From Antedon mediterranea (Eukaryota; Animalia; Echinodermata), in the NCBI RefSeq assembly GCF_964355755.1, contig NC_092678.1:12336352-12400351 (forward strand): 64,000 bases of DNA. Direction: 5' to 3'. This document shows positions 1,937-33,243 of the stretch, piece by piece. Under the pieces are notes generated by a model that saw nothing but the letters and a program-made list of their open reading frames with translations, was not told the DNA's origin and did not search any database. Both the position numbers and the translations under genes were made by a program. The first letter of the stretch is position 1, and each line of letters starts with the position of its first letter.

Positions 1937-3854
1937 ATGAGTTTGTCAAAAATGTTAAGCATTTTTGCATTTCTGCTATATTCTACAACAATTTTGCTAA
2001 GCATCCAAGCATCCGACAATGATGTGTTACTTGAATTTAAACCCTATGGAAATGAAGATCTATACCATGTCAAAATACATAGTACAACAGGAAATATCTA
2101 CATAGGAGCTTACAACTCACTGTACAGACTGTCAGGAGATTTCAACATCATTGCTAATATTTCAACATGTTCATCAGATGATTGTGATAACATTAATAAA
2201 ATATTAGAAATTGATTATGATCATGATAGATTGATTGTATGTGGAGGAGGAAACAATGGAAGATGTGAAGTAAGATCTCTTGTGGATTTAGTAACATTAT
2301 ACAAAAGTGATGTAGACAAGGAAATAGTGAGTGAACTATCAGCAGTTGGAATCATTGCACCTGGTGTGTTAGGTGATGGCACTAGAGATAGAGATGATTT
2401 TATTAAACGAAATGTTTTATATGTCTCTTCTGGACATACATCATTAAATCCAGTAGAGTATTCTTACAGGTACATTAATGCTAGAAGACGTCTTGATACT
2501 GATGTACTATTTGGACTCACCAGCCTTGCTTTCAATGCTATCACACCATCTTACAATAAACCCATACAATTTAAAACAGTTTTTAATTACGGGGGATATA
2601 CTTACTTTGTTGCATTTAGACCCAATGATACTTATTACTTTCATTCGCGACTGAGTCGTGTTTGTCAAGACAACTCATTCGTCACATTTTCTGAGATCTA
2701 CATTCGTTGTGTTGTTAACAATGTTGATTATAACTTGGTACAAGACATGTATGTCAGCCCTGTAGGCACTGAGTTGGGCACCTCACTAGGCCTACAAGCT
2801 GGAGATAATGTCCTGTATGGAGTGTTTGCTAAAGGTGATGGAAGTGGAGTTGCAACTGGACAATCTGCAATGTGTATTTACAAGTGGAATGATATAGAAG
2901 ATGCATTCTTCAAGGCCTTAAATGGATGTATAAATGCTAATAATGATGTTCATACTCTAGACTATGCTGAGGATGCTGATTGTTCACAAGTATGATATTA
3001 TTTTCAAACTTACATTATAATAGTCTTGTTACTTATTTGGTGTGGGAACTTTATTTCAAACATGTGGACAGATGTTGTGTTTTCTAAATCGTATGGCAAT
3101 ACTAGTCAATAAGTCTAACCACTCATTCTGATTTGTTTTCAATTATAAGACATGTGAAAAAGTGGATTTATTATAATTCTGAAATTTAATCAGTTTATTA
3201 ACTGATACAAATTCAAGTTAAAAAATACTGTTTGTTTTTAATAATGAAGTCTTTCAGTTTTACTGCTGCTGATATTCAGTCATTGGTGTGTCCACAAAAT
3301 CATGGTAGGCAACTATACAGACGTTATTCCCAAGGCACCTACACAGAAGCAGCAGTATCAGAAGCATTGCTAACAGTTAATGATAAAATACTAAAATCAG
3401 TTACTACAGCAATTGAAGAGGATCGTACAATAGCATTCATAGGCACAGATAATGGACAACTTATTAAGGTTAGTATAAAATTAGTACTGTACGCGACAAT
3501 GTTTTAAATAAAACTATGAATTGTCAATTTAGAAATATCTAAAAGACTGGTGATAATGAGTGAGACATGCATATTTGTCAGCAGCATTTATTCACAGGTT
3601 GTTCTACTTAACTAGCATTCTGCCAATTATTTTTGCTAGTTTTAACACTGCTTAAATGTAGAAATATGTTTTAATAAACTATGTCTTAAATTGATTAAAT
3701 GTTATGTTTTCTTCCAATTTTTCAGGCCGAGTTAACCAACAAAACCTCATCTAGAATGTATGAGTCTGTCACCATAGATACAGGTCAAGAGGTCAGGTCA
3801 GACACATTTATAGATGAAACATCTAATTATATAATAGCACTCACAGCAAAAAAG
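1937..3854 (+). CDS. PLXN: Plexin exons 1-3: signal peptide and Sema domain
   Basis: Hydrophobic N-terminus; Sema motifs NINKILEID, RLIVCGG..NGRCEVR, SRLSRVCQD..FSEIYIRC, YNLVQDMYV, SAMCIY, TIAFIGTDNGQLIK. Confidence 0.92.
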
Positions 3855-6800: not shown

Positions 6801-9800
6801 AAGAAATTAAATATTACATTCATGTTTTTTGTAGAGATTTTTGTATTTAATTTTCAATTATGTTGTTTTTACCCATAAAATACATTTGAAATTAAGGCCT
6901 AGGCCTACACAGTAGCTAACCTTTAAATGATTTGTTTACAGCTTCTGTAGATGTTATTTTATCAGTTCATTCATCCGTAACTGATGTTGATTTTGTTTCC
7001 ACTGACTTCACATTCTTTAACTGCAGTGCCATTACTTCGTAAGTATTGATTAACTCATTTTTTATAAGAGTGTGGAATAAATAAAAATGTAAAAATATTT
7101 CACTACTTTAACTATTAAATTGTAAACACACATTTTCTAAAGATAACTAAAATAAAAGGATCTGAAATTCAAGTGACACATTATTTTTAAGGAAATGAAT
7201 GTTTATTTAGTTTCTACTGTAGCAGGTTGCAATGTACATAATTTGTTATAATCTCACTGTCATCTTTACCAGGTTGCAATGTACATAATTTGTTATAATC
7301 TCACTGTCATCTTTACCAGGTTGCAATGTACATAATTTGTTATAATCTCACTGTCATCTTTACCAGGTTGCAATGTACATAATTTGTTATAATCTCACTG
7401 TCATCTTTACCAGGTTGCAATGTACATAATTTGTTATAATCTCACTGTCATCTTTACCAGGTTGCAATGTACATAATTTGTTATAATCTCACTGTCATCT
7501 TTACCAGGTTGCAATGTACATAATTTGTTATAATCTCACTGTCATCTTTACCAGGTTGCAATGTACATAATTTGTTATAATCTCACTGTCATCTTTACCA
7601 GGTTGCAATGTACATAATTTGTTATAATCTCACTGTCATCTTTACCAGGTTGCAATGTACATAATTTGTTATAATCTCACTGTCATCTTTACCAGGTTGC
7701 AATGTACATAAGTTGTTATAATCTCACTGTCATCTTTACCAGGTTGCAATGTACATAATTTGTTATAATCTCACTGTCATCTTTACCAGGTTGCAATGTA
7801 CTTAAGTTGTTATAATCTCACAGTCATCGTTAAATACTTAAGGAAATCAAATACAATATATTGATAATATTGTTGTAATGGGACAGTTGTAATTGTGTAA
7901 TATGGTACTGTACAAAGCATACGAGATGTGTTCTTTAAATTTCAAATATATTTTGAATTCTGAACATAACAAATATTAATATAGCTGTGACGGAATTAAT
8001 AAACAGAGTCAAATATTTAAAACTATAACGTGTCAACATTTAATTATTATTGTTTTATTCTTCTGTATTTTGAAATCAGATATACAATATTTCATTAGAT
8101 AACCAATACTTAGTTTTAAGACATTTTGCAACAAGGAACTATCAACTCGTCAGTTCTGTGTTGTGTTTAATTCATTTGCATTACATTATTTATAATCAAA
8201 TAAAAGAAAGGTACCCTTAATCGACTTGAGTTTGTAAGGCAATGACATACTATTTTAAATCATCTTTATTCTTATAATTTGTAATTATGTTTTGAAAGTT
8301 AAAATACTAACATCCAACATTTCTAGAAAATCTAGAAAATTCTTAGTTAAACTTGTCAGCTTCTCTTATTTGTGTTTGCTGTCACTGAAACTAGAACTGT
8401 AAACCTTCTATATTATTTGTTTGTTTGTTTGTTTGTTTCTCCTTATAAGAAAAACAAATATGTGAAAATGTATGAATTGGACTCTTGAAATTGAGAAAAA
8501 TATAAACTTCATCAAGATACGTTTGTGCTCAGAATTGTTAAAAAAATACAATAGATCATTATGTTAATTTATGCCGTATGTGTACCTTAAAGGGTGTTAA
8601 ACCATAATGCCCCTCGTTTTGCGTTTTATGTCCTCTGAGGAGTGGAAAATGATTGAAGTATACGATATAATTATTCTCTTTATTAGAATAACAACATCTT
8701 TATATCGGTGGCATGCGTGTCAAACGGTTATATTACATAATATAATAATGATTGGCACACTTGTAGTGTAAAATAAATACATGGTGTTTTACTTTTAACA
8801 ATATTGTTTTGATTTTATTCTCAATACTGTAGTTGTTCTGAATGTGTTTCAAATTTTACTTGTGATTGGTGTGTCTACGACAACAAATGTACCCATAATG
8901 CATCAACATTGTGCACAGCAGACGACAAAATTATTTTGAATGGAAATGTAAGTAATTATGACTTTTTTTTTTGGTGCTGTATAATCAAATGGAAGCTGAA
9001 CTTGTATTGCTCAAATAAACACTTTTCGAGACAACATGTTTTAGGCTAATTGTTTTTGGAAGGGCTTGGTAAGGTGCAAATTGTTGTAGTAATGTTTGCT
9101 ACCACGGTTCGTAGAGTAACAGTTTACATTTGATCTTCTACTGTTATCAGTGTGAAGAAAAAAACAGAAAATTATCTATTTTTGTAATTATTGCATTCAA
9201 AATGTTTAATGGCATTATTGTTGAAATATCACTGATAAGCTATTGTTTAAATATGTAGGCAGCATCATCACCAAATGGTTTTCAAGGTCAAGGGTCATGT
9301 CCACAAATTTATCAACCAAATGGGGAACTTATTCATGCAAATATACGGAAAGAAGTCAGAATACCAATTAAGAATTTACCAAATGCTACAAAGGTAAACA
9401 TTTAAAGTTAATAATTTATTTTCTCCATGATACTGAAATAAACTGACCTTTATATTCATTCATGTTGATTGAGAGTTAATTCACTCTCCACAAATAGACT
9501 TTTTTAACTCTTTGAGTTTTACTGGGTGGAGTTGTGGCATGGTGGCTATGATGCTTGGCTATCAATCCAAGGTTCCTGACATATTTCAGACCTCTACTAC
9601 CACTACTTGTACTCTTTGTTTATGTAGAGCATCTTGTGTATGTTTGTCTTGTGAACGGGATTGCCACCTTTAAAAGGATTGTGAATGAATTATGGTTTAT
9701 GCTTATGGTTATCCTTGGCAATTTACCTAAATTTATAAAAACAAAACAAACACTACAGTCATGGTAAGACTTGCAGTACATGATTTAAACGGACCCATAA

Positions 9801-12800
9801 TGTTATTCCATTCAAAATGTTAATGGAAAAGAAGTTTACCCAGTGAAAGACTAGGTCATTGAAACAATCTTCCTGTGTGTGTTCTTTTATAAAAACATAA
9901 GTGGTTTATAAAAAACATTCAAGAAACCTGAAGCGTAGTAGTGAGATATGTGTGTGAGATTTCAGTCTACTGTAATCAATCAATTCCCACAAGAGATGGC
10001 ATAGAGTATTAATATAGAATTTTGTGAAGTGATGAATTAGGCAGGATAATTCAATTCAAAACCTCTATCAATGTAGGAAAACATCAACAACCTAAAATTA
10101 GAAGTTTTTATTTGTTTGTCTCTGTTTATTAGGTAAACAACTATGAATGTGAGTTGGAAATTGAAGCACAAGTCGGCAGGATTCCAGCAACAGTTGATGA
10201 ATCAAACTCAAATATCACATGTTCACAATACACTGTAAGCATCTATATATAAATTTACGTAAGGGCAAAATTCGGTAAATCGCGCGTTATTTCTAGAATG
10301 TTTACTCGATGGTATGTAAAGTTGGTTCGTACTTTCGGTACTGATTTTAACCACCTGATGTAACCATGTTTACTAATTAAATTGAATTCGATAATTAGTT
10401 ATTGACGAATAAAACGAGTTTTTAGGTTCAACGATTTGCTCCAAATAGGGGTGTTTTCCGATCGTGGTATACACTGTCTAATGGATGTCCAATTTGAAAA
10501 ATACACGCACACAATAATACGAGGACACTTCGCATTTTCCTATCTCCTCCTACGATAATTGTTTTTAATAGCTGAAAACCGGTTGAACAGTTCGAGTACA
10601 GCATCATAATCTTGAAGACAGGCCGATTTTCTTTAAAAAATGCTATTTTGATAGATTTAATATACGTTTTTACAAATGTATTGATTTGTGATGAATGGAA
10701 CATTCCAAATTATTTGGTTTAACCATAGAGGCATAGATTTAGATTTATGGGCTCCCTTGGAGAATAAACATAAATAGTATTGCAATGATGTACAATACTG
10801 TTAAGGTATTAACCACTTTTGATCGCAATTTGAATCGCAAATTTCTTACTGTGAGTGTTGGTACTGTTAGATATATATAAGCAAAAATATACAAATAAAC
10901 TTTATTACTGTGAGTGTGGGTAGGCCCTACTGTTAGATTATAAACATATAATATACAAATAAATAAACGTTATTACTGACAGTTGCTTCTCAACATTTGT
11001 ATTAATTAATAATTTAAAAATATATAAACGTCGTAGTGGTGTATCGTTACATGTACTTTACTATTTCAATCGACTATGACAGTGAGAGTTTTAACAAAGT
11101 ACTAAATCGTAAATGTTTTACTGTCTTTAGTGGTATATTATTTATAGGCCTATAAAACATTAAAAACAATATTTCGTTACTAAGTAGATAAGAATATATT
11201 TTAAAATGTTTCCTCTTTGTACCTATCTTCTTCCCCCATCCCTCAACCCTTAATGTTACATACAAAACACAAATTGGGTTTGTTTAAATGAGTCCAAATA
11301 AAAAAATTTGACTCATTTTGTTTCTCTCTCGGAAGTAATTCCCAGGGTGCTAATTTTGGTTGACTACATAAATCATCGTGTATATTTATTCGTTTCTGTA
11401 AACGACAATGTATTATAGTCCTGCAGTACGTACATTTGAAATCTCCATTTTTTTCTCGCTGGAAAATACTGTGTATTCGAGAACCATCTGTGGGCACGAC
11501 CTAGATGGTACGCGAGCGAAGCGAGCGTGCCATCTAGTCTATAATAAATTTACGTTAGGGCAAAATTCGGTAAATCGCGCCTTACTTCTAGTATTTTTAC
11601 TCGATGGTATATAAAGTTGGTTCTTACTTTCGGTACTGATTTTAACCACCTGATGTAACCCTGTTTACTAATTAAATTAAGTTAGATAATTAGTTATTGA
11701 CGATTAAAACGAATTAGGTTAAACGATTTGCCCCAAATAGGGGTGTTTTCCGTGGTATACACTGTCTAATGGATGTCCATCTTGAAAAATACTCGCCACA
11801 AAAATGCGAGGAGGCTTCGCATTTTCCTATCTCCTCCTACGATAATTGTTTTTAATAGCTGAAAACCGGTTGAACAGCTAGAGTACAGCATCATAATGTC
11901 GAAGACAGGCCGATTTTCTTTTAAAAAAAAACTATTTTGATAGACTTAAGATACGATTATACAAATGTATTGATTTGCGATGAATAGAACATCCCGATCT
12001 CTCAGTCTGCCAGAGTTTTGTTTAACACAAGTAGGTAAATGTATGAGCCCTTGGTTTAACACATACGGTAGGTAAATATGGGCCCTTTGAGAATAAACTT
12101 GTAATACTTTGACAATACTGTAAATACCTATTAACTATTTTTGGTCCTCATTTGAATCGAGCATTTCTTACTGTGAATGTTCGTACTGTTAATGTAATAT
12201 AAAAATATATACAAAAAAACTTTATTACTGAGATTGTGGATAGGCTTCACTGTTAGATATACAAATAAACTTTATACTGACAGTTCCTTCTCAACGTTTG
12301 TATTAATTAATAATTACCAATAATATAAACGTCGTAGTGGTGTATCGTGACATGTACTTTAATATTTCAATCGATTATGACAGTGACAGTTTTAACAAAG
12401 TATTAAATCGCAAATGTTTTACTGTATTTAGAGGTATATTATTTATAGGCCTATAAAACATGGAAAAAATATTTCGTTACTGAGTGGATAAAGAATATAT
12501 TTAAAAATTGTTCCTCTTTGTACCTATCCGCTTTCCCATCCCTCAACCCTAATGTTACATACAAAACACAAATTCAAAAATTTGGATTTTTGTGGTAAGT
12601 TTCTCCTTCGGAAGTAATTCCCAGGGTGCTGATTTTAGTTGACTACATAAATCATCGTGTCTATTTATTCGTTTCTGTAAACGACAATGTATTATAGTCC
12701 TGCGGTACGTACATTTGAAATCGCCAGTTTTATTACGCTGAAATTACTGTGTATTCGAGAACCATCTGTGGGCACGACATAGATGGTTCTAGTTTTAGCA

Positions 12801-15800
12801 ATTTTTTTAGTCACTAAATGTGAATAGTAACACATTTTATTTAGATGAATTAAAAAATCCAACGTCAATGAGATTTTAACAAGTTTATTAGATTTACGTC
12901 GATTCCATCCATATGATGATGTTGATCTAAATCAAAGCTAATTTTAAACGGACATTTTTATAAAATTGACATAACAAATGCATTAGTTTGCTTAGCCATC
13001 AAAATTTAAAAAAAAGTTTGTTATAAATGGTTTCCATTCATAATAATATCAATAAATGTCATGCTATTGCATACATAGTGCCATAGATGGTTTATTAAAT
13101 TTTAGAAATTAGATTTAGTAAAAATATAGATTAATGGTTTATGTCCTAGATTACGGTTCTGATCATATGTCCAAATGTTTCACTACAGCATTACCGTATA
13201 GTTTTCTAAATAGATATTAGAGTATCTTGTGTTAATATTTTTCCAGTAAACCTGAAACATAAGCGTGTCAGTTTTCTGTAATTGCAATGTGCCTAAAATT
13301 TAATTGTAAAAAGCGTAACGTGTATTTCATTTTAGTATGACTACGCATCTAAGGACAAAAAGGAAGTAAATGTATATATTAGAGTATTTTGGAATGAGAA
13401 TGTAATTGAAAACACTTATCAAGGTTGGTTTCAATTGATTGTTTATATTGATAAGAGTTACAATGCAGCTATACAAATGCCTGGTTCCTTTTTTAACATA
13501 TACCAGTTTTAGTATAAATCAACATACTTCTATTATAGGCCTAAAGCTCTATCTACAATATCAAATTAGTTTGATAAAAATGTGTGATTTGCCAAAATAT
13601 GGTAGTAATAATGGCATCATCATGTCCATAATGGACACATGAAATTGTTATGTCACATACAGTTTGATAGTGTAGACAAACTAGCTTGACAAAAAAGTTT
13701 ATGTGTCCAAATATGGTAGTGACTATCATGTCCATAGGCACATCAATTGCCAATTGCATGGAACTCCATTGCCACCTGGGATTTATGCATTTTATGCGAA
13801 CTCATGTTTTACATTATCTTGCCATTTAGCATTAATACTGTATATCCTTTGGTAAGCTTCAACATTTATATGACAGGTGAGATAAAACTTATTGTTAATA
13901 TTTCTTGCATTGTATATCTATTTACCAGTTACATTGTACAAATGTAGTGTTCAACGTCCAGACTGCAGTCGATGTTATTCAATGAACACCACTAGGTCAG
14001 CACTTGATTGTGTCTGGTGTACTGGAGACCAATGTTCCTACAGTCCATTCTGTTCATCAATAGTGAATGAATGTCCATCACCTGTTATTATTCAGGTAAT
14101 TGGAATTATTTTTCTTCTACTTCTATTCTATTTTAATCTTGTTTCAGGGAATAAATTTGATTGAAAACGCGAATCTGAAACTGAAGAACAAATATTTTAC
14201 TACAAGTCTAAATCATTTCTTAAGTAGGCTTTTATGTTTGTCATTTTTTTTTCAGATTCTTCCCATCTCTGTTGCTACAGTAACTACTCAACCAGAACCT
14301 GATTTCACAGAGGTCATTGAACTATTCGGAACTGATTTTGGACAGATGATGTCAGACATTTACAGCATTACGATAGATAACAAAGAATGTGTAATAGTCG
14401 CTGATGGATTTAACATACATTTACAAAGGTATTTATTGAGAAAAACTTAAATAATATTAAACAATAAAATATAGGTACATTCTTTGGTTATTAAATTACA
14501 TTTTTATTCTTAATAATAGTATACTGTAGTAAATTTTAGGGGAAATAATTGAAATATAATTCCTTAAGAATATAATATAGAACAACAACAAATAGGAAAT
14601 ATACTGACAATTATTGTTAGTTTATTTCCTTTTGTTGCTGTGCAGTTTAGAGGTTACCATTTCCAAGTTGCTAAATTATTATACTATTTATTGATATAAT
14701 TCGCCTAGTTTATATCCCTCGTTGAAATAACCTTTATCAACGCAATTAAAATTGTTACATTTTAAAATTTACTATACCTACACAGTGTGAAATGTAAAGC
14801 TCCTGTGTTTGATAGTTTCTCTCAACATGACGTCATCATAACTGCCCAAGGAAAGACAAGTGCACCTATAGTCTTACTCTATCAGGTATATATTTTTTAA
14901 ATAATGTAAAAAAATATTGTTTGTATGAATGGCAGAAAGTCAAACTAGTTACATTTTAATTAACATTAAACACTAAAATATATTTTACAAAACTATTGTA
15001 GTACGAAAAGTTATTTATACGATTTGTTTGAATATAATGAAATCAGTGTTTGTCTTTAAAATATTAAAAATAAACATAACTTGTATTAAATGTAATACTG
15101 TAGATGTTGTATTGTGTAGAAAGATAACGTGTTTTTATTTTAGAATCCAATTATATCTGAGTTGAGTCCAAGGTTTGGCATAAAAGCTGGTGGAACTACA
15201 CTAACATTCAGTGCATCTAATCTGAACACTGGGAATGACTTAATGGTATCTATTGATGGAAGTGAATGTTTTGTTACAGAGTAAGAAACACAAACTCAAA
15301 GTAATGTATTGATAAGAAAAGGCTAATCTATTAAATGAAATTATAATAAAGTGTTTTTCGTCGCTGCAGTAATGTTACATTTATTTCATCTGCTTCTCTG
15401 CCAATTATTCTATAATAATCTCAAAACTGTATAAATGATTATGTTGGTTATTTTATTTTGTGTCAATTTTTGTGTCAGTATCAATGAAAACCAGATAATG
15501 TGTACGACATCAAACTATACAACATCTGGAGCTAAAGTTGCAGTAACAGTTACATTTGGAAATGCTGTTAGAGATGGTCCTACCTTCACTTACACTACAA
15601 ATCCCACAGTGACTGACTTCCAACCTAATAAAGGCATTCAAGCGTAAGAAGACATACATTGTGTTCTCAATTATAATATATGTATTCGTTCATTGAATAG
15701 ACGATGGAGTACTGCAAAGTATTTTTCTATTACTACGCACAGCTTCAGTAACAATCAGTAATTGATTGATCAATACATTTATTGAATTGGTTGCATACCT

Positions 15801-18800
15801 ATCTAAATTGTTAGGATATTTTTTTTCTAAACATTCTCCTAAAATGTATGATACTGTAGTATATAAATATTTAAAATTAAACAAGACAATGTATATATTT
15901 TAAAATAATTTAAATTTATTGAAATTAAAAATAACGTTTTTATTGCAGAGGTGGTCAAAACATCATAGTGACAGGAACAAATTTTCAATATGTACAGAAA
16001 GCACAGATGTTTTTAAATAGTATATTAACTGAAAATGTAAGATTTAAATTACGATTGGATAAATTTCAATTGAAAGAAAGAACACTTAACTACTAATATT
16101 AGGGCATACTTACATATACCCACCATTAAGTACTTGGTAATGCCAATTTATTTAAAACTTTCTTCTTCAAAATGATTCTATAATTTTGTAGAAATACATA
16201 TTATATCGAAGAATATTATATGAAATAATTGGGCATGAAACAAAATAATTTTTTTTTCTTCCCAGAACTGTATAATTCTGTCAAATGAGAATATGGATTG
16301 TAAAAGTCCACCAGCTGATCTCTCCACATCAGGTAGCAGACGACAGGCAGACCAGGAAGTTTTACCTTTGACATTTTCATTTGATGATTTTGTTCCAACA
16401 TTGAACGGTGATTTCGGATTTTCCGTTTACTCTAATCCAGTTTATTATCTCTTTGATAATAAGTCTTCTTACGGAGAGAAAACGGAAGATGGTGACTATA
16501 AATATGACAACAAAATTGACGAGTTCATGATTCTGATGGTAATTATAATATGTGACATTTTTTTATTTGGTTTTGATTTAAGAGTTAGAATTCATCATTG
16601 TAAACCATTTAAAGCTGTTCGACATAGTCAGTTTTTGTGGATATGATGCCGATTGGGCTTCTTTCCAGCCACTTGATGGTTTTGATTTTTAGTGTCAGGA
16701 AAAGAGTCCTATATTTCTTCTTGTTTAATTTGTAATAACAATTGATAATATTATTCTGATTGCCTGTAAATATTTACAAGGTTTACAATTAAATCTTGCA
16801 AAATTGGACCACCAGAAACACTACATCAATAACATCTTAATTGTCATAAACTTATTCAGTTTCAAATTTCATATATGAAATTCTTATTGGTCAGATGTTT
16901 TGCCCAATTCTGACGTAACTGTAAATTATTCTCATTACAAGTGCGAGAGAACATAACTGACCAATAAATTCAATACATTGCTACATTGGTTCATATAAAA
17001 ATGCAATGGCGTTTTAAACTTGATTATAGTTTTGAGAATCAGTATTTTATTTATACCCAACATTAAAAAAAAGCCTGTATTTACATAATAGGGGTCTGAC
17101 ATCAACCTTGCTAGTAATGTTGAGGATTTTTAAGTGTTCATTGGAAGTGTTAAATGCACTGTAAATTCAATAACACGTACAGTAGTTCTTGTTGAAATAC
17201 CAGATAAGGAACCTAATCCAGTAGATGGTGAAGATCATCCTATTGTTAAGGTAGATCGTGAGCTCACTAGATAATACTTTTAATATTATATATAATATTT
17301 TTATAATATTCAATAGTCCGTAACCAATAATGTCAAAATCACAAATTGTTTTTAAACGAACTCATCAACATTGTAATATTAATTTATTTTAATTTTTAAG
17401 ATGAACTACGTTATTTATGTTGTTCTGTTTTAGTGGCTGTTTAGACTTAGGTTGAATAAGTAAAACAACGTACAGAACTTAGAGACAAAAAAAGTGTTTG
17501 TCAAAATCCTATTTTACGAAATTCTAATTTTAGACTTTGATAGGCCTACTTAAACATTTTTTAATATATTCATACATTATTACTACTAGATTGTTTTTAA
17601 CAAAAAATGTACTACAGAATGTAACCAATGTTAGTGTTTTAATATTGATTGTCTCCAAATAACTTTAGATCCGTCATGGAAATCTAAAGTTCACTTTCGG
17701 TGCAATAAGATATGTAGGCATTGGATTGTCTACCACCGTCATAATTATTATAATTACGGTTGTTGTGATTGTGGCTATCACCATTACAATCATACTTGTC
17801 TACTGGCGTAGATCAAGAATACTCGACAGACAATTGGAAGAAACAACAGTGAGATTTTTTAGAAAAAGTAAGCTAAAAAGCATTATAGATAAACTCAAAC
17901 TATTGATATCATAAGGGGCTTGAAAAGTAAAAGCTAAATTTGGATATATGAGTGATGTAAAATATAACTGATTATTTCTACAAAAATGTCCCATAAACTA
18001 AGAGTAGTGATTTACTTTTTGAAATTAGACGCATTTTGAATTACTATCGCAAGTCTTCTAGAAACGAGTTTTAACAAGTTTTTGTAATAAAACAAGATAA
18101 TTAGAGTGCCTATAGGAATACGCTACTGGAAAACTAATATGCACAATTAATCCAAATGTTTTGCAATTTGTAGCGCCGAGTTTAGTGTTTATGTACTGTA
18201 TATAGATGATGAGGATAGCATACCGGCATTATAATGAAACAATCGATTACACATAAAGCTACATTCAGTATATACGAAAGTCAATAACTACAATCTAAGT
18301 AATTGTTAATAAATTCATTCATATTTAGAAGAAGAAAAAGAAAAGGAGTTTCTAGGAATAGATGACGATAATTCAGAAGTAAGGTATATGGGCATAGTAC
18401 ATGACAGCATAATAGCAAGAGAATTTAGTCAGAGTAAAGAGCATTATGTACAATGTATGCTGTTTCTTGGATGTGAGATGACTCCAGTAATGCAAGAAAG
18501 TGGATATGTAAGATATTGCTACTTGCTTGTGATTACACAACGTTACAAAACATTCAATTAACGCGGGGTGTTACCTCAATGATTAATTGTATTTTGTAAG
18601 GATTTTGCAGTATTTACACCATGTCATCCGAAAGGAAGAAAGGAAGTAGGCAAATTGTTTACATTTAAAAATTCTCAACTTTACATAATCTTTTTTTAGA
18701 AAATTATAGTTTTACATTTATTTACAAATACGTACGAGAATACGATATAATATTATAATATTATTACTTTCATATGTTATGTGGTATTGTTTTATTATTT

Positions 18801-21800
18801 TATAGACTGAACTGTTGGAAGATCATCGAGGTTTACCTGAACTGGATTTGTTTTTGGACGAGAAGTTTCTAATGAAAATAATTAACATTTTAGACAATGA
18901 CTCATCGTTTACATCTGTACAAAGGTATATTAAAAAAAATTGTAATGATTTTAGATTTAGATTTGGATAATAAGTCTATGGTTATGATACAATATCGGTA
19001 CAAACGGTGCAAGGAAGCTGCAATCAGTGTCACTTTTAAGTTACAATGGTTCACGTCTAACTTTGTCTATTATATGGTTCTGGTGGCAGAACACGTAAGA
19101 AAAACCGTTACAGTCTATTGGTTACTATATAATACTATAATTACGCCTACAATTAATACAAACTTTTATCTGTTTTACTTTAGGCAAAACTTTTCCGCTT
19201 TGTTCTTAATGGCTATGGTTGGTGATGATAAAACAGAATATCTATTTCAGTGAGTAATACTCAGTATATACCTTATTAATTTACAATTCTTGTGTATGAC
19301 GTATGCAAGAATGAACGCTAGAATTGGCAGCACTGACTGACTTAAGCGACAAGATGTAGTTGGAAAGTAAATTATCTAAGTCCACAGTAGCAATGATCGT
19401 TATACAATTTAAGTTATTATTAAGTAATTCTATGGTTACGCTTAATTCTAATATGTTGTGTGATTAAATATTTTAGTATTATGGATATGCTTCTAAGCAA
19501 ACATATTGCTAACAAAGTGAAGGCCAAAAATGTCAAGTTAGCTTTAAGCAAGTGGGTACAGTTATTTTGTGTTTTTAATAATTAATTATTAAAACCTAAT
19601 TTGCAAACGTGTGTTTATCAAGTTATGACATATTACTTTAGTGACTGTGAATGTGAAATATACTTCAATATGTACTTATATACTTCTTATATACTTCATA
19701 TACTTTTTATCTATTGCTATATTAATCAAATGTAATATAGCAATTACCTTCAATTACAGAAACGGTGAAACTGTTATCGAACATATGATATCTCACGTGA
19801 TGGCATTATGCATGTATAAATACACAATGGTATGTAAATTATTTTATACATTAATAATTATACCTACATATCATTATTCTTAATAATTAAACTAATGATG
19901 TCCTAAATCAAGTCGGTTTATTATATTAGTAAGTAATATTATGTGATTTGGTTTACGTAATGTAAAATTAGCTTGGTTTGGGTTATTTTCTTAACAAAAG
20001 ATTTTCTTTCTAAATAATATAAGTCTCTTTTTTATTTGTAACAAATTTGACTCTTTAATAGGAATATCAAATAAAGTCCATCAATCATCAATTAATCAAT
20101 CAATCAAATAAGATCAGATCTAAAATAACGTACTGTATATAAATATATTATGTGTGTTGTATACTACTTTCACTTCAATTTTGCAGAAGTATGTATCAGG
20201 GCCTCTTTTGCAACTTGTAGATGCTATAACTACGAGAATAGATAGTGGTGCGGTAGACGCTGTTCATCATCATTGTCAATATTCTTTAGACGAGAACTGC
20301 CTTCTGCCAATTGATGTTACTGGAGAGAATATAGTAAGATATCTGCAAATGTTTTGGAAACATTTGAGTATATAACATATAACACTGAAGCATAATGCTA
20401 CTTGCAAACAATTATTTTAATACATTTTTAGAGCCCATGACAAGTAAATGTGTATATAATAAAAATGTTAAAGAAGGTCAGATAATCCCGCAAATATTTA
20501 ATTATTAGCCAATCCGATAAATACTGAATTTCCACACAAATTCAATGGCATTTTTTTTTCAATTTAGAATTTGAGTTTGGTAGTTGATGAGGAAAAACAA
20601 GAGATTGTGAAAGTAAACAGTTGTGATACGCTATTTCAAGTAAAACAAAAACTGTTAAATGTTATGTTTAAGGAACAACCTTTTTCAAAAAGACCCAACG
20701 TTTCATACGTTCAGTTAGGTGAGTACACCAACAAACAAGCAATTTAATTGTATCTTGCTCCTTTATTCTGTAGATTTCAATTATATAAATACTGTAATAA
20801 CCTAATTTTTTTTTCTAAATCTAGAATGGAGAGTGAATGTAGATCAACGAATTATTTTACAAGATACCGATTTACAGACAGAAAGAAAACTAAAAACAAT
20901 TGCAGATTTTGGAGTAATATTACTATAGTATTTTTTGTTTTGTAATATAAATTAACTGTTAGAAAAATGTATTAAGCCTATAATAATAGGCTTACTAGGT
21001 TGTGTACAGGCCGGACGTCAGTGGACACAAGCTTAACATGACGCATGCACCTTAATTAATTAAAAAAAAATACTTTTCTATACCAGCAGGTTAGCAAACA
21101 AATAAATCAATCACTACTCGGATCGTAAATTTGAAGAATTACTTTTTTTTCAGATTCAAAATAAAGCAGTGGTAGCGTTTGTAGACGTTTGGAAGGAAGA
21201 TATCAACGCGTCAGACCAGTATGATACAATTAAGCAACCAATAGTTGCTAGACATGGTAATAATGATAATATGTATTGGTATACATACTACATTCCAATT
21301 GAACCTTACTAATATATATATAAATCAATGATGTTGCGTAGCACTGTGTAAATTATATATAAATCATACTGTAAATTATAGAAACAGTGCTCATATTCGG
21401 AACATGATCTCATAATCGCGTCGAGCATAGCTCATTGGCGAAAGTTCCATATTTTTTAGTTGTATGAAAAAATGTTTCTGGCTGGATTCGAACCTGCAAC
21501 CTCTCGCTTACAGGGCGAGTATCATACCACTAGACCACAGAGCCATGTATGGTATTATCACAGATTTTCACCCACCAGATACATTCTCTCATACAACAAA
21601 CGCCCTCACAATCAGTGGAGGCTTAACAAGTCAGAATAAATTCCAACTTTAATTCGCAACGGTTTTTTAAATAATATTGTGTATATGTAAATCAATGATG
21701 TTGCGTAGCACTGTGTAAATTATATATAAATCATACTGTAAATTATAGAAACAGTGCTCATATTCGGAACATGATCTCATAATCGCGTCGAGCATAGCTC

Positions 21801-22415
21801 ATTGGCGAAAGTTCCATATTTTTTAGTTGTATGAAAAAATGTTTCTGGCTGGATTCGAACCTGCAACCTCTCGCTTACAGGGCGAGTATCATACCACTAG
21901 ACCACAGAGCCATGTATGGTATTATCACAGATTTTCACCCACCAGATACATTCTCTCATACAACAAACGCCCTCACAATCAGTGGAGGCTTAACAAGTCA
22001 GAATAAATTCCAACTTTAATTCGCAACGGTTTTTAAAATAATATTGTGTATATGTAAATCAATGATGTTGCGTAGCAACATCATTGATTTACATATACAC
22101 AATATTATTTAAAAAACCGTTGCGAATTAAAGTTGGAATTTATTCTGACTTGTTAAGCCTCCACTGATTGTGAGGGCGTTTGTTGTATGAGAGAATGTAT
22201 CTGGTGGGTGAAAATCTGTGATAATACCATACATGGCTCTGTGGTCTAGTGGTATGATACTCGCCCTGTAAGCGAGAGGTTGCAGGTTCGAATCCAGCCA
22301 GAAACATTTTTTCATACAACTAAAAAATATGGAACTTTCGCCAATGAGCTATGCTCGACGCGATTATGAGATCATGTTCCGAATATGAGCACTGTTTCTA
22401 TAATTTACAGTATGA

Positions 22416-22469
<54 letters not shown>

Positions 22470-25400
22470 TTAATATATTTCAACTTTAAAAAAAATCAGT
22501 TTCTCCTTATTTTATGTAATTATAATTGTTCAATAATAAATTAATAATATAAAAAAACAAACAATACTGTTTATAAAGTCACGGTCATTTATACTGAAGA
22601 TTTCTTATTGGTATTACAACAACAAACAGCTTTATTCAGCCAATGAGTGGCAGAATAAACCAATTTATTTGTTGTTGTTGTTGTTTGTGCTATTGTTTTA
22701 TTATTGTTTATGATGTAACTTTACTTTTTAAGAAACTAACATCTACCAAACATCAATCAATGCAGATGGCACTTTCCACATTGTGAGTGATTTTAGTTCA
22801 AATACTTTCAAACATTTACAGTCACCATTAATTGAATAAACAACAAACAATTGATATAAATAAATCTTATTGCTTATTGGACATCTGGTAATGAACTGTG
22901 AACTAAATATTCATTAAAGTAGCTTTACGCTAGTCGATAATTTGACTACACATCAGTTACTGTTGGTCGTTTAGTAGGCGTTCTAGTTAAAAAAAATATA
23001 TTTAGCATACATTGCTTGTCATAACTAGAGACTTGGCAAGTGTAGTTGGTCAGTTTTGATTATTTTGAAATGAACTTTTTTTTTAGTTGGAAGGAAATGT
23101 GTACACGGGTGCGTATGATGCAATGGACGGCGAGAAGCCAAATATTGATGAATCCATCTTTGAAAGGTTAACTGAAACTAAGGTAGGAATAAATAAAAAC
23201 AACATTTTTTGATTTAAACTATTTGAAACAGTTGGTTTTTAATAGGATGCAACTTGACATGCATATGAGACGTATCACTCTAATGTATCTTGTTGTTGGT
23301 CAAACTTGTATTGTCCGTCCATTGTGTCCTCGAAACTTTTTGTATGGGAGTAAACCCGCTTTTATTGTTGTTCTGCATATATCGAACATCATTGGTTTGG
23401 TTTTCCTTAATATTTTACAGTAATAAGTATATTATTATCTCTCATGTCCACAGCATATTTACCAACAGCATGTTGACTCCATAATGAATAATGTATTCAG
23501 CTCATCATCGAACAAAATCCATCTACCGCTATTTGTTAAATATCTTTTTGATTTTCTGGATAACATGGCGACTAAGCATGGTGTTAGTATCAATGAATTG
23601 AAGATATGGAAAAACAACAGGTATTGAAATTGCAATACATTGTTAGATAATGATATATTTAGGTTTTACTCAAAGCTCACAATGGTGTATCTACGATTTA
23701 CATCGAAGAATTGGCTCCTAAGAGGTCTGATTATTTAACATTAAAAGAAACAAGGTTAAGAAATTTAAATTATAAATATTCAAAATTCAAATTAAAAGTG
23801 TAGGCCTAATAATTTATGTTTATATATGAGCGTCTATTTCTTCTTTTATAATGAGCATTTTCCAAATTATTTGTCTTACAATTTCAATATCAGCACGTAT
23901 TTTTTCCATTTTCATACAATGTAATCAAAATAGCAAGAAAAATCAGAAGTGGACTAGATCAATAATCATATTTTTATCCTTTTTTAGTTTAGCTGAAATG
24001 TTTTGGTTAAGAATACTGAGAAACCCTGCTTATGTCTGTGACATTCAACAAACGCCCCCTATTGATATTACTCTCGGTATCATCTCTACTGTTTTCCGAG
24101 AATCTTGGTCAATTGAGCTGTTTGGTTTTAAAAAGGTAAAACGCAAAAGTCAATGTATTTATTTTTGTATTGTATGGCTGCGTATTTTAATGTGCGACGA
24201 CATCTTACCGAGACCGTTTAATGAATATCAGTTTACTACTTTAGCTTCTGTTCAGAATCATATTTGTTCATATTATTGTTTTAGTTTTATATTTGCACGA
24301 TTTTGTTGAAATTAAGAACTAACTGTAGACCTACAGTTTGTCCAAATCTGAAATATCATAAATACACTTTCTTTTGATTATTTGGATTCTAAACCGTCAC
24401 ATTCGCTTCACTGTTTATTCATGTAGACCACCCTACAGTTTCAAAATTATAATTAGGTGATCATTTAGAATAAAATGATCACCTATTGTTATTGTATGAA
24501 ATCTTTATTAGGTGATCATTTAGAATAAAATGATCACCTATTGTTATTGTATGAAATCTTTATTCTTCTTCTTATTCTTATTATTTATTTCTCTCTGTAC
24601 AAATTTGTGTAACAATTATCTCAAAAAGTTTAATGTAAATGATTACCAAAATTTTACAATGTCGTTCAAATACTGTAACTTAGTCCTAATAAGCTTTTCA
24701 GCGTGATCACTCATCCATGACGTCGCGTATACGCCATTTTGTGAAATCACATTGTCAATCATATCTCCATAATTCATTATCACATATTAATGAAATTTAC
24801 TACACGTAAACTTCAGGTCAAAGGTAAAAGTATTAGCAAATAAAAAATTGCGTGTTTCAAGGTCATGCGCGTGAAATCGCGCATTAAAATTTTAAAAAGC
24901 TCAAAATTAAGTTTTGATCAATTTAGAGCATGAAATAGGCCATTTGCGTGTTTCAAAAAATTACTGCGCAAAAACATATTTTTGGCTACGCGAGTTTTAA
25001 AAAGCGTCAAAAATAAAATTTGATGTATACATCACATTCTACTCACAAACCTTAGTACATTCTCCAACTTTGAGTCCATTCCGACTTAAAATAACGCTAT
25101 ACGAGCACGTTAAACATGACAAAATGCGCACATTAAATGTACAAAAGTGCTAAAAATGGTAAAAAGTAGGGCCTTTTTAAAATGAATATAACTTTTCAGA
25201 ATGAAAGGTGACCCCAATTTTTTTAACTTATTATGGAAGCCAATGAGTTGTATAAATAAAATGTATATACACAGTAGACGTACAAAATGGTATGACGTCA
25301 TCATTTGGCCACATGAATTTTGAAAATAGGGGTTTTTCCCCTTTTGTCATAGACCACCATATTCAACAGAGCGCAACTCGCTTATCTGTTATCGATTTTC

Positions 25401-28400
25401 TTTTAATTTTTAACACATTCTACCTCAACCAATTATGTTACTTATAAGTTGCCAATATTTTCTTTTGGATAACGTTATCATGTCTTAAAATTTAAATAAC
25501 GGTGGTTACGTAATTTTACCTACAACGTATATTTGAATACCTTACAGCTCTTCTGAATTAAAGTTGACCTCGATGTTTATAATTTAGTATGATAGCTGGT
25601 GAAATGTAGATATGAATTCATACAAAAATTAAGCCTATCAGATGTTGTGACGTTATCATATGGCCAGTTGAAGTTAAAAAGTAGTTTTTTCATCTCTTTC
25701 GTAAAAGTTATACAATTTTTAAAGAGCGCGCACAGCCCTTCTACGTGCCAAATTTTCTTCCAATTGTTATATTTTATTGCTAAATTCATTATTTTTCAAT
25801 ATTGTTGTCCACAAGTTTTTTTTGATAATGTCATCAGTGCCAAAAACTTAGAACATGATGTGTGTCCGTAATTTCACCTATGCTACACTGTATATAGATA
25901 TACACAGTACAGTATATACTGTACATATTGTATTATGGCATATAATAGGCACAACTCAGCACTATAAGCGTATAATAGGATGGCATACATCAACATTTTC
26001 CGATTGTATGTTAACATACGTGCATGTTTCAAAAATATGAATGTCAATAAAATGATAAAAATGATCACCTATAATTCGTCAAAGTGACGAATTAAATTCT
26101 AGTTATTATTATTTTTTTTTCTTTTTATTGTTTCTGTACACTATTTTGTGTAACAATTATCTCAAAAAGTTTAATGTCAATGATTACCAAAATTTCAGAA
26201 TATCTTTCAAATAATATAACTTAATCCTAATCAGCTTTCCAGCGTGATCCTTCATCCGTGACGTCATTTATACGCCATTTTGTGAAATCACATTATCAAT
26301 CATATCTCCATAATTCATTATGACATATTAATGAAATTCACTACAGGTAAACTTCAGGTCAAGGGTAACAATATTAGCAAATAAAAAGTTGCGCGTTTCA
26401 AGGTCATGCACGTGAAATCGCGCGTTAAAAATTTAAAACGCGCAAAATTAGGTTTTGATCAATTTAGAGCATGAATTAGGCCATTTGCGCGTTTCAAAAA
26501 ATTACTGCGCAAAAATGCGTTTTTGTGCGCACGATTCTTAAAATGCGTAAAAAATAAAATTTGATGTATAAATCACATTCTACTCACAATCCTTAGTACA
26601 TTCACCAATTTTGAGTCCATTCCGACTTAAAATAACGCTATACAAGCACGTTAAAAATGACAAAATGCGCACACTAATTGTACAAAAGTGCTAAAAATGG
26701 TAAAAAATAAGGACTTTTAAAAATGAATATAACTCTTCAGAATGGCAGATGACCCCCAATTTTTTTAACTTATTATGGAAGCCAATAAGTTGTAGATACA
26801 AATGTATATACACATTAGACATACAAAATGGTATGACGTCATCAAATGGCCACTTGAAATTAAAAATTAGGAATTTTTTTCTTTTTGTGTGGGTTATCAC
26901 ATTCAATAGAGCGCATCTCCGTTATTTGAGCCCAATTTTCGCACAACTTTTAGTATGTGCTTGCTCAATTAATTATTCTTGTAATGAGTTGTCAACATTT
27001 TTATTTTGATGAAGTCATCACGCATAAAAACTTGAATAACCTAGGTCGTGTAATTTCAGCTACACCATACATTTGAATATCTTATAGCTCTTCAGAATTA
27101 AAGGTGACCTTAAAGATTATAAGTTATTATGAAAGCTGATGAAATGTTAGATATGAATTCATATTAAAATTAAGCCTATCAGATGTTGTGATGTTATCAT
27201 ATGGCCAGTTGAAGTTAAAAAGTAGTTTTTTAATTTCTTTAGTCAAGGTTATACAAATTTCAAAGACCGCGCATTGCGCTTCTACGTGTCAAATTTTCTT
27301 CCAATCCTTATATTTATTTGCTCAATTCATTATCTTTCGAAATTGTCATCTTCGAGTTTATTTTGAAAATTCCATCATACCAAAAAATTAGAACACGATA
27401 TGAGTCCCGTAATTTCACCTATGCTACACTGTATATAGATATACAGTATATACTGTACATATTGTATGACACATAGGTAGAACTTAGCACTATAGTGTAT
27501 ATGCAATCATGTCATAGGATGGCGTACATCAACTTTTAACGATCGTATGTTAACGTACATGCATGTTTAAAAAATGTTAATTTTATTAAAATGATAAAAA
27601 TGATCACCTATAATTCGTCAAAGTGACGAATTAAATTCTAGTTAATATTTATATCTTTATACATATTATTATATCATGCAAGCAGTTAAAAGCTACCGTA
27701 CTGAGTTTAATAATTATTTTGTAATATTTCATCAGCCATTTAATTTAAAAGTCTATTTTTGGTGAAAGTCATGCCAAGTTTGTTCTTTAGTGCTTTTTTA
27801 ACTTTCATTCTTTATTTCAAAGAGTTCGCCAAGTCATCGACAGATGTATGTAAAAGAGATTCCACGATACCGCCAACTTGTTACTAAGTTCTATAGTGAC
27901 ATCAAGCATACCCCAACTTGTGATCGCATGAACGTTATCGATGAAGTAAATTCTCTTATACAGGTATGTACAAAGACTATCAATATTGCTATTTCTCAAA
28001 GAAATTAATAGGCATAGGTTGAGGCATATGTCAATATACAAACATTGAAAGAAATATGGTAAAATAATATACTAATACTAATGCTTTTTATTCTCAGCCA
28101 TTTAGCACATTGTTTAAGAAGTCGAGTGTGTTAGTGAATCTTCATTCATTTACAGATAAATATTTAAGAGAGGTAAATATAAATAAATTATATACAGATA
28201 TTTTGATAGTGTACCAGAAGAAAAAGATTTACTGATCTATACACGTCGGCTTTACTATACTGTACTAAACAGTTGAACTAATAGTGAACAATTAGAGTAC
28301 TTCAATCAACACTTTTTCATGTATTAAAATTAAAAGAAGGCTTTCCATTATTTTTATTATCCAATTTACATACCAAATAAAATTAATTATTACATGTATC

Positions 28401-28710
28401 TTAGTAAAACAATGTGCATTTCCCGTGCAAACATCATTCTGCCTCTAACATTTATCATTTGAGTAAACGTTGTTAATATTTTAATATTTTAATTAAATAT
28501 CAGGTTAAAGACGCATTCCTTAAAGGTACAAATAGAAATGAAAGTACTGTTGAAGTTTTTACAACAAAAGTAAGTAAGTCGTCGTCGTCGTCGAAAGAAC
28601 AAGCAGCGTATGTCAACTCAGGAATCCAGCAAAGTCGTCGACACAATCAGAAAAGAAGAGAGGACACAGGTGTGATCATACTTTCTGATGATACAAACGC
28701 TGGTTGCTAA
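1937..28710 (+). CDS. PLXN: Plexin (divergent), 36 coding exons, ~1890 codons, one internal TAA at 17131-17133
   Basis: GT-AG exons in consistent phase: 1937-2989, 3250(or 3280)-3468, 3726-3854, 5396-5508, 5811-5928, 6226-6382, 6942-7038, 8833-8947, 9259-9393, 10133-10234, 13336-13423, 13929-14095, 14256-14428, 14786-14885, 15144-15280, 15479-15643, 15949-16036, 16266-16538, 17092-17250, 17669-17867, 18329-18507, 18806-18924, 19184-19249, 19477-19551, 19760-19829, 20187-20333, 20568-20718, 20825-20913, 21154-21256, 22733-22782, 23087-23182, 23454-23620, 23988-24135, 27823-27963, 28098-28172, 28504-28710. The summed length is a multiple of 3. Domain order is Sema, PSI x3, IPT, TM, GAP/RBD. Confidence 0.93.
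4038..4838. mobile_element. hAT-type MITE (801 bp)
   Basis: ~32-bp TIR cagagccatatatataaagagttacgacattg and its perfect reverse complement; 8-bp TSD gtagagca at 4030-4037 and 4839-4846; no ORF. Confidence 0.88.
5396..17250 (+). CDS. PLXN: Plexin exons 4-19: PSI and IPT/TIG domains
   Basis: PSI motifs CSRFITCDECI..DPYCGWC, CSECVSNFTCDWC, DCSRC..CVWC. IPT motifs PIISELSPRFGIKAGGTTLTF and PTVTDFQPNKGIQAGGQNIIVTGTNF. Confidence 0.9.
7223..7828. repeat. 47-bp minisatellite, ~13 near-identical copies, in plexin intron 7
   Basis: Unit caggttgcaatgtacataatttgttataatctcactgtcatctttac repeated head-to-tail without spacers. Confidence 0.97.
10242..11537 (+). mobile_element. Non-autonomous Helitron, copy 1
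   Basis: 5' TC (tctatatataaatttacgtaagggc); 3' hairpin ctagatggtacgc-gagcgaagcga-gcgtgccatCTAG; preceded by A; no TSD. Confidence 0.85.
11538..12792 (+). mobile_element. Non-autonomous Helitron, copy 2 (head-to-tail with copy 1)
   Basis: Starts tctataataaatttacgttagggc immediately after the copy 1 CTAG. Colinear but diverged; ends ggttCTAG followed by T. Confidence 0.85.
17669..28710 (+). CDS. PLXN: Plexin exons 20-36: transmembrane helix and cytoplasmic GAP-like domain with RBD insert
   Basis: TM segment VIIIIITVVVIVAITITIILVYWRR. Cytoplasmic motifs GAVDAV..YSLDE, VKVNSCDTLFQVKQK, EWR..ILQD, LPLFVKYLFDFLD, WKNNSL, FW..ILRNP, SPS..YVKEIPRY..FYSDI. Stop TAA at 28708-28710. Confidence 0.92.
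21473..21544 (-). tRNA. tRNA-derived sequence, identical copy in repeat unit 1
   Basis: Reverse complement of 22235-22306. Confidence 0.55.
21840..21911 (-). tRNA. tRNA-derived sequence, identical copy in repeat unit 2
   Basis: Reverse complement of 22235-22306. Confidence 0.55.
22235..22306 (+). tRNA. tRNA-derived sequence (tRNA-Pro-like D/anticodon arms, TGT in anticodon position); probable pseudo-tRNA or SINE-type Pol III promoter
   Basis: GGCTCTG TGGTCTAGTGGT ATGATA CTCGC-CCTGTAA-GCGAG AGGTT GCAGG-TTCGAAT-CCAGC CAGAAAC A, then TTTTT. A and B boxes are intact. There are 2 acceptor-stem mismatches, 1 T-stem mismatch and C at position 33. Confidence 0.6.
24452..27641 (+). mobile_element. 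Two Helentron-associated (HINE/DINE-like) non-autonomous elements, ~1.6 kb each
   Basis: The 5' head with subterminal IR aggtgatcat...atgatcacct occurs twice (55-bp period), followed by a T-rich microsatellite. Two diverged bodies each end atgatcacct-at-aattcgtca-aag-tgacgaatt-aaattctag (at 26102 and 27641). Confidence 0.8.
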
Positions 28711-32680: not shown

Positions 32681-33243
32681 CTTAGATTTTAAAGTTAATA
32701 GTATATTAATTCACGCAGAATGATCGGTATTTTTTCTAAAAATGGCATTATTACTATAACATAATGGGCAAATTCCAAGATTTTAGCGTCACATATTATG
32801 TATCACATGTGACGCCTTTTAGTGCGATTCGGTTTAACATTGCTAAAAGATAAACATTTTGGCATATATGGCGTGCCATAGGTATACATGAGCTGGAATC
32901 AATGTTGTTGAGCTCGTAAAAGAATACATAAAATAAACAGACGACTAAGGGCTATGTTAAGACATTTGTGTCATGTATTCGTGATACTAGAAAAGATGTA
33001 GATACAGTACGAAAAATGTGTACTGTATAATTACATTGATTGTAAACGAACAAACAGAAATCAAATGTAATGAAACTAGAAAAGAAACTATATTAAACAA
33101 TGTATGCACACATCTAGTTCCAGAATTATTTAAGCATAGACGAAATATTACCAATCTTTGGATGAATTTATAGCCAATAACAAACCTTTACGTTTACTCA
33201 TTTTAAAACGATTTTGCTATAGGTTGTGAAATGTAACGCTTAC

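What the first reader, a model, noticed from the sequence alone, without database searches (positions are those of the whole stretch)
19477..24135. Plexin whose GAP domain has lost all three conserved arginines (candidate pseudo-GAP receptor)
Seen: the spliced exons 24/25 read KNVKLALSKNGETVIEHM where plexins have HPKLLLRRTESVAEKM. Exons 32/33 read WKNNSLAEMFWLRILRNP where plexins have WKSNxLPLRFWVNxIKNP. Established: these Arg residues (plexin-B1 R1677/R1678/R1984; plexin-A1 R1429/R1430/R1746) are required for GAP signalling. All 16 cytoplasmic exons are nevertheless open, correctly spliced and keep fold motifs. Inference: this is a maintained but catalytically dead plexin acting as a decoy, co-receptor or scaffold.
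Basis: partly seen in the sequence, partly recalled or inferred. Interest (0 to 1): 0.8.

Follow-up and report, generated by a model that had tools for sequence, protein, structure and literature searches.

The report
Feather-star plexins lacking catalytic arginines
A multi-copy feather-star gene family encodes plexin receptors that have lost the arginines other plexins use to switch off Rap GTPases but are predicted to keep the normal fold, so they are likely catalytically dead receptors, although the copy in this window also carries a premature stop codon that the sequencing runs examined do not show.

Summary
Observation confirmed. A 36-exon plexin (1937-28710, +) has Ser-Lys at the RR pair and Met at the third arginine. 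The first R of the pair is the catalytic finger. Only 2 of 11 GAP-site positions scored are kept, and the juxtamembrane activation helix is degenerate. The fold is still predicted and 16 cytoplasmic exons are open despite 34% identity to the nearest paralogue.

(1) This copy has an in-frame stop in exon 19 (17131), before the membrane anchor; no contig of four runs carries it, so it is a null allele or a base error. (2) The gene belongs to a recently amplified Antedon family of at least six copies, all arginine-less, with spliced RNA shown for ectodomain exons. (3) Finger loss recurs: 4 of 8 other echinoderm/hemichordate plexins and 1 of 27 others, with one origin rejected.

Best reading: a pseudo-GAP plexin-B subfamily acting without catalysis (0.55); rival: a decaying tandem cluster (0.25). 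No activity assay or cytoplasmic dN/dS was possible. Not found in print or in earlier scan notes.

The parts
1937..28710 (+). Plexin-B-type gene, 36 exons, 1889 codons, one internal stop
   Evidence: Exon model with 35 GT-AG introns; tblastn of A. mediterranea models
1937..2989 (+). Exon 1: N-terminal hydrophobic leader and most of the Sema domain
   Evidence: Pfam Sema E 5e-7; 91% to P0001
3250..16538 (+). Exons 2-18: rest of Sema, PSI and IPT/TIG domains
   Evidence: Pfam PSI, PSI_Plexin-B and TIG hits on exons 8, 12, 15, 16
17092..17250 (+). Exon 19 (159 nt, phase 0-0), last ectodomain exon
17131..17133 (+). Premature in-frame stop TAA (codon 1157); relatives and reads have a Glu codon
   Evidence: all contigs of 4 runs read G at 17131
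17669..17867 (+). Exon 20: transmembrane helix (about aa 1213-1240)
   Evidence: hydrophobic stretch in the translation
18329..18507 (+). Exon 21: degenerate juxtamembrane segment; Pro611-equivalent is Leu
   Evidence: 15% identity to reference plexins against 34-47% in P0014, P0047, P0035, P0041, P0043; pLDDT below 50
19547..19549 (+). Ser codon at the arginine-finger position (zebrafish PlexinC1 R711)
19550..19760 (+). Lys codon split by intron 24, at the second Arg of the RR pair
20568..21256 (+). Exons 27-29: Rho-GTPase-binding domain; patch residues W1807, L1815, T1823, Y1839 read W, I, Q, F
   Evidence: Pfam Plexin_RBD E 7e-11; alignment to plexin-B1; residue list from PMC3166162 passages
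23454..23620 (+). Exon 32: GAP C2 segment
   Evidence: Pfam Plexin_cytopl E 6e-11; PDB alignments
23998..24000 (+). Met codon at the R1001-equivalent; four codons on, Arg replaces the N1005-equivalent (24010-24012)
27823..27963 (+). Exon 34: activation segment; P1050 kept, N1052 is His, K1053 is Arg
   Evidence: Pfam E 2e-9
28504..28710 (+). Exon 36: end of the GAP fold plus a Ser-rich C-terminal extension longer than in most aligned plexins, with a Tyr-Val-Asn motif

Best explanation
This gene is one copy of a recently amplified crinoid plexin-B subfamily whose cytoplasmic region has lost the arginine finger, the supporting arginine and most Rap contacts, is predicted to keep the plexin fold, and likely works as a catalytically dead (pseudo-GAP) receptor. 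Shown: the substitutions, the open frame of the 16 cytoplasmic exons, at least six distinct copies, and spliced RNA for ectodomain exons of the family. Inferred: ligand binding at the variable ectodomain no longer switches off Rap1, because the finger, the switch I/II contacts and the dimerising juxtamembrane helix are all degenerate. Any output would come from the retained Rho-binding domain, the C-terminal extension or partner receptors, or from soaking up ligand and diluting active plexin dimers. The copy in the window is itself a null allele or carries a base error (stop at codon 1157), so the claim is about the subfamily.
For: 2 of 11 GAP-site positions kept; 1 of 8 among strongly conserved ones against 60 of 109 other conserved columns, Fisher p 0.027. 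45 of 50 conserved hydrophobic columns remain hydrophobic. Single mutations at N1005, Q1032, N1052 or K1053 strongly reduce or abolish activity (PMC3787391 passages and section 13). AlphaFold model pLDDT 75.6, pTM 0.75, best Foldseek hits are plexins. The cytoplasmic core is only 192 of 571 identical to the nearest paralogue yet open; rough chance of no stop under neutrality 4e-6. Run X1 has contigs joining exons 12-13, 15-16 and 17-18, and no run shows the stop. Rho-binding patch is 3 of 4 hydrophobic. GAP-independent plexin signalling exists in mice (PMC12963419 passages).
Against: This copy has a premature stop. None of the 9 closest A. mediterranea models (P0001-P0009) is full-length, and three end in apparent intron read-through. 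The stem branch is 3.5-4 times that of the sister paralogue, which fits relaxed constraint. The Fisher test is post hoc and uses a redundant reference set, and Arg-bearing relatives show the same trend (3 of 8 in P0047). The open-frame estimate does not date the arginine loss. The model was built on an alignment of canonical plexins, and the single-sequence model failed (pLDDT 34.5). RNA was laid on exons 11-19 only, and the expressed contigs differ from this copy by about 2-6% over the joined exons. The RBD is not better preserved than the GAP segments (33% against 28-31%).
Confidence: 0.55

Rival explanations
1. A decaying tandem cluster (birth-and-death evolution): the GAP lost function, constraint relaxed, and the many near-identical copies are recent duplicates on their way to becoming pseudogenes, with no job for the cytoplasmic domain.
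For: Premature stop in this copy. Fragmentary RefSeq models of 195-1203 aa. Very long stem branch. Only 55% of otherwise conserved columns kept. Two intron read-through ends of other models match the window's introns, so high identity among copies can reflect recent duplication or conversion. A possible older plexin remnant lies at 1561-1761.
Against: 16 open cytoplasmic exons with intact splice sites after hundreds of amino-acid changes. The stop is absent from all contigs in 4 runs, and spliced RNA exists. P0004 is open across 1029 aa from the IPT domains to the C-terminus.
Confidence: 0.25
2. The working product is the shed or secreted ectodomain (a soluble semaphorin-binding decoy). The cytoplasmic exons persist as passengers or only as an anchor.
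For: The window's stop and the end of model P0001 both fall at exon 19, just before the membrane anchor. Between the window and P0004 the ectodomain is 297 of 349 identical and the cytoplasmic part 621 of 644 (p 7e-10), so variation is concentrated outside the cell.
Against: A stop 17 exons from the end would likely trigger nonsense-mediated decay (general knowledge). Reads lack the stop. The end of P0001 may be an annotation artefact. Passenger exons would not stay open.
Confidence: 0.1
3. The domain is still an active GAP with changed chemistry or substrate, using the Lys or Asn in the finger loop or the new Arg at the N1005 position on another small GTPase.
For: Lys, Asn and Arg lie near the old active site, and P1050 and N1009 are kept. 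Some GAPs use residues other than arginine (PMC3787391 passages on the Asn thumb).
Against: The new Arg is Ser in copy P0008. Switch I and switch II contacts and the activation helix are lost together. Finger substitution abolishes RasGAP activity (PMC9408373 passages).
Confidence: 0.08

Closest known systems
Vertebrate plexins A1, A3, B1, B2, C1, D1 (Rap GAP receptors; PDB 3ryt, 3ig3, 3su8, 5e6p, 4m8n, 5v6r)
   Same: Sema-PSI-IPT ectodomain, one membrane helix, split GAP fold with inserted RBD
   Different: Finger Arg, second Arg, R1001, N1005, Q1032, N1052, K1053 and P611 are all substituted; juxtamembrane helix degenerate; Ser-rich C-terminal extension
Echinoderm Plexin-B expansion (Acanthaster Plexin-B1 to B8; PMC6374515 passages)
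   Same: Falls in a starred 7-row echinoderm clade and groups with Antedon P0014 and P0047 (support 97)
   Different: The paper passages and supplement search show no mention of arginines (0 hits). This subfamily has lost all three and sits on a branch 3.5-4 times longer than its sister
IQGAP1 GAP-related domain (pseudo-RasGAP; PMC9408373 passages)
   Same: RasGAP fold without the finger arginine and without substrate contacts; works like this by analogy
   Different: Cytosolic scaffold whose inactivity was measured. Here the domain is part of a transmembrane receptor, and inactivity and partners are untested
Other finger-less plexins found here (Antedon P0014, Acanthaster P0035, Strongylocentrotus P0066, Ptychodera P0062, Mytilus P0179)
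   Same: No Arg at the finger position
   Different: Mostly independent losses (5 changes; single clade rejected, p-AU 3e-47). Only P0062 has also lost the R1001 site (P0066 lacks that region), and its alignment there is loose

Membership tests
Plexin family | Sema domain followed by PSI and IPT repeats | tested here: met
   Pfam hits on exons 1, 8, 12, 15, 16
Plexin family | Single transmembrane helix joined in frame to the ectodomain | tested here: inconclusive
   Exon 20 encodes it, but this copy stops in exon 19; P0004 is open across the junction and reads lack the stop
Plexin family | Split RasGAP-like fold with inserted RBD | tested here: met
   Pfam, PDB alignments, model and Foldseek
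Catalytically active plexin Rap GAP | Arginine finger (PlexinC1 R711) and supporting Arg (R1001) | tested here: not met
   Ser and Met
Catalytically active plexin Rap GAP | Rap switch I/II contacts (N1005, N1009, Q1032, P1050, N1052, K1053, P611) | tested here: not met
   2 of 7 kept
Catalytically active plexin Rap GAP | Juxtamembrane helix for dimer-driven activation | tested here: not met
   15% identity, conserved motif absent; low model confidence there
Catalytically active plexin Rap GAP | GAP activity on Rap1 | not testable with these tools
   needs a bench assay
Echinoderm Plexin-B expansion | Groups with echinoderm plexin-Bs, apart from plexin-A | tested here: met
   (quick trees, SH-aLRT only, long branch)
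Pseudo-GAP (IQGAP type) | GAP fold lacking the catalytic arginine | tested here: met
Pseudo-GAP (IQGAP type) | Maintained by purifying selection | tested here: inconclusive
   Open frame over long divergence, but no cytoplasmic dN/dS and a long stem
Pseudo-GAP (IQGAP type) | Measured inactivity and a non-catalytic binding role | not testable with these tools
   needs bench work

The most novel reading that the evidence does not exclude
Feather stars have built a multi-copy family of enzyme-dead plexins with diversifying ectodomains on a near-uniform pseudo-GAP tail, working as decoy or recognition receptors beside active plexins. Such pseudo-GAP plexins arose repeatedly in echinoderm, hemichordate and mollusc plexin expansions, giving natural tools to isolate GAP-independent plexin signalling.
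Probability: 0.25. Interest if true: 0.7.

Novelty: new variant of a known kind. Interest (0 to 1): 0.42.

Why it matters
The GAP domain is described as the best-conserved part of plexins from choanoflagellates to humans (PMC6374515 passage), and GAP-independent signalling is known mainly from engineered mouse mutants. Natural, repeatedly evolved GAP-dead plexins would show what a plexin does without catalysis and would add receptor pseudo-GAPs to the known pseudoenzymes. The importance is tempered because pseudo-GAPs exist elsewhere, paralogue degeneration is common in expanded families, and this copy is broken as assembled.

Tried and rejected
No whole genome was held for this window, so copies could not be counted or compared as DNA, and cytoplasmic dN/dS was not computed. 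No RNA holder was on record in the run search; X1 was a guess, later shown to hold spliced contigs. Reads were laid only on 13000-17260, so the exon 24/25 and 32/33 junctions are not checked against RNA. Summed contig depth suggests a multi-copy family (single exonic contigs about 1500-2100 against about 150 for unique intron contigs in X3), but the tool says depth is no copy number, so it is not used. The single-sequence fold failed. The careful tree did not finish; quick trees were used. One search left out 7 of 39 rows (redundant snake isoforms, partials, P0003), and one search used 18 of 39. Codon differences between the window and X1 in ectodomain exons were 10 synonymous and 18 non-synonymous, from 30 places picked from the 40 rows shown of 304, too biased to call selection. 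No close full-length orthologue outside Antedon turned up; these searches are length-limited and word-limited, so this does not date the subfamily. Alternative splicing as a rescue was rejected. Skipping exon 19 would keep the frame but remove 53 residues of the last IPT domain; no joint of that kind was among the 15 of 32 joints shown, and the laid stretch ended before exon 20. The paper search 'pseudoGAP' returned physics papers. No complex prediction was run.
Full report
Gene and origin. The window holds one plexin gene on the + strand, 1937-28710, with 36 exons, 1889 codons and 35 GT-AG introns. Pfam finds Sema, PSI, TIG, Plexin_RBD and Plexin_cytopl on single exons. The only full-length-range hit of exon 1 among 3306 candidates is a plexin-B-like model of the feather star Antedon mediterranea (P0001, 91%). 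Models P0005 and P0009 of that species are identical to the window over exons 21-31 and the last 208 residues, so the window comes from Antedon or a very close relative.

The observation. In the PlexinC1-Rap1B chain 4m8n_A, index 453 is the Arg of the RFW motif. The construct is residues 552-1147, which gives an offset of 548 and also puts N1005, N1009, Q1032 and D1036 on the right letters. R711, the finger (PMC3787391 section 12), is then index 163, the first R of the pair. The window has Ser there, Lys at the second R plus a one-residue insertion, and Met at R1001. An ungapped alignment gives Lys-Asn instead; neither has Arg. All 5 of 8 Antedon models covering the pair and all 6 of 8 covering R1001 agree. 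Alternative junctions do not restore the finger.

The loss is wider than three residues. Of 11 positions scored (ten named in PMC3787391 passages and section 13, plus the second R of the pair), the window keeps N1009 and P1050 only: P611 is Leu, N1005 Arg, Q1032 Thr, D1036 Glu, N1052 His, K1053 Arg. Among columns at least 90% conserved in 27 reference plexins, it keeps 1 of 8 GAP-site columns and 60 of 109 others (p 0.027; post hoc, redundant set). The juxtamembrane helix needed for dimer activation (section 11) is 15% identical to references, against 34-47% in five relatives that keep it and 26% and 14% in P0120 and P0062. Meanwhile 45 of 50 conserved hydrophobic columns stay hydrophobic. An AlphaFold model of the P0004 tail with 32 aligned plexins has pLDDT 75.6 and matches plexin structures (TM 0.72-0.76 for the best hits); the alignment biases this. 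The Rho-binding patch of plexin-B1 (PMC3166162 passages) reads W, I, Q, F, so Rho binding is plausible but untested.

Exon 19 has an in-frame TAA at 17131-17133, upstream of the membrane helix. As assembled, this copy makes at most a soluble ectodomain. Laying 4 of the 5 listed runs (2 samples) on 13000-17260 showed G at 17131 in every contig (5, 8, 8 and 3 contigs). In X3, 522 of the depth keeps the window's letter at 17128, matching the depth of the closest long contig, yet none keeps T at 17131. Contigs drop rare variants, so the stop is a private null allele or a base error. Run X1 has contigs joining exons 12-13, 15-16 and 17-18 with little intron cover, so the family is transcribed and spliced; those contigs differ from this copy by a few percent.

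A multi-copy family. Eight cytoplasm-bearing A. mediterranea models lie on a 26 Mb contig, and six overlap at the C-terminus with 2-19 differences in about 207 residues. That means at least six copies, unless some are uncollapsed haplotypes. None of P0001-P0009 is full-length. Between the window and P0004 the ectodomain is 85% identical and the tail 96% (p 7e-10), while exon 1 of another copy (P0010) is 77% identical. This fits ectodomain diversification, tail constraint or 3' gene conversion; without DNA I cannot separate these.

Maintained or decaying. The tail core is 192 of 571 identical to the nearest paralogue P0014. If half the differences arose neutrally on this branch, the chance of no stop is about 4e-6, so the frame was under selection for much of that time. 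This does not show when the arginines went. The stem is long (2.79 against 0.67; 1.88 against 0.54), so constraint changed strongly.

Not a lone case. Of 150 Sema relatives listed (630 found), 15 had a plexin tail, and 20 more came from a profile search. Among these 35, the finger is lost in 4 of 8 named echinoderm/hemichordate proteins (P0014 Ile, P0035 Cys, P0066 Thr, P0062 Thr) and 1 of 27 others (mussel P0179 Leu). The tree needs 5 changes and rejects one clade (p-AU 3e-47). The sister P0014 also lacks the finger, so in Antedon the finger may have gone first and the rest later. These are database gene models, and single-residue errors are possible.

Mechanism. Shown: substitutions, open frame, copies, spliced ectodomain RNA. 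Inferred: no Rap GAP activity (likely, about 0.9, from published mutants), and a non-catalytic receptor role through the RBD, tail or partners, or as a decoy (0.55 overall). Rivals are a decaying cluster (0.25), a secreted ectodomain (0.1) and altered catalysis (0.08).

Novelty. Searches for 'Antedon + plexin' and for plexin with 'lacks', 'arginine finger', 'pseudo', 'catalytically inactive' found 0 papers; searches listed none on natural GAP-dead plexins by title or abstract. The library lacks most subscription papers. I read passages of PMC6374515 (plus a term search of 4 supplements, one cut when stored), PMC10084454, PMC12183121, PMC9553217, PMC12963419, PMC3166162 and PMC9408373, and passages plus sections 11-13 of PMC3787391. 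Earlier scan notes held nothing on this. Verdict: real, a new variant of a known receptor, of moderate interest, with this copy broken as assembled.

Noticed in passing
window 21315-22425 (intron 29): Three 99-100% identical copies of a unit of about 350-370 nt, each with a tRNA-Thr(TGT) gene (21472-21545 -, 21839-21912 -, 22234-22307 +): two in tandem and one inverted, forming a 351-nt palindrome with a 3-nt spacer. A recent duplication or an assembly artefact.
   Followed up: partly
window 1561-1761: Weak match to the start of plexin exon 1 (E 1e-4 to P0010; E 0.004 to P0001) just upstream of the gene, possibly a remnant of an older copy.
   Followed up: partly
window 37881-38381 (-): Intronless homeobox open frame (Pfam Homeodomain E 3e-15).
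   Followed up: no
window 32060-32681 (-): Two C-type lectin exons, probably part of a larger multi-exon gene on the minus strand around 30500-33000.
   Followed up: no
window 34796-35434 (-): Reverse-transcriptase fragment of a retroelement (Pfam RVT_1).
   Followed up: no
window 24560-26110 and 26103-27649 (intron 33): Tandem pair of a repeat of about 1.55 kb, 84% identical.
   Followed up: no
window 49066-51316 and 55695-57950: Inverted pair of a 2.26 kb element, 98% identical.
   Followed up: no
window 28504-28710; protein P0062: The C-terminal extension contains Ala-Tyr-Val-Asn, and the arginine-less Ptychodera plexin P0062 has the same four letters in its own extension. Tyr-x-Asn is recalled as a Grb2-type docking motif; may be chance.
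   Followed up: no
proteins P0014, P0035, P0062, P0066, P0179, P0120, P0047, P0072: Other invertebrate plexins with degenerate GAP motifs: finger lost in five, R1001 lost in P0120 and P0062, second R of the pair lost in P0047, P0072 and P0066.
   Followed up: partly
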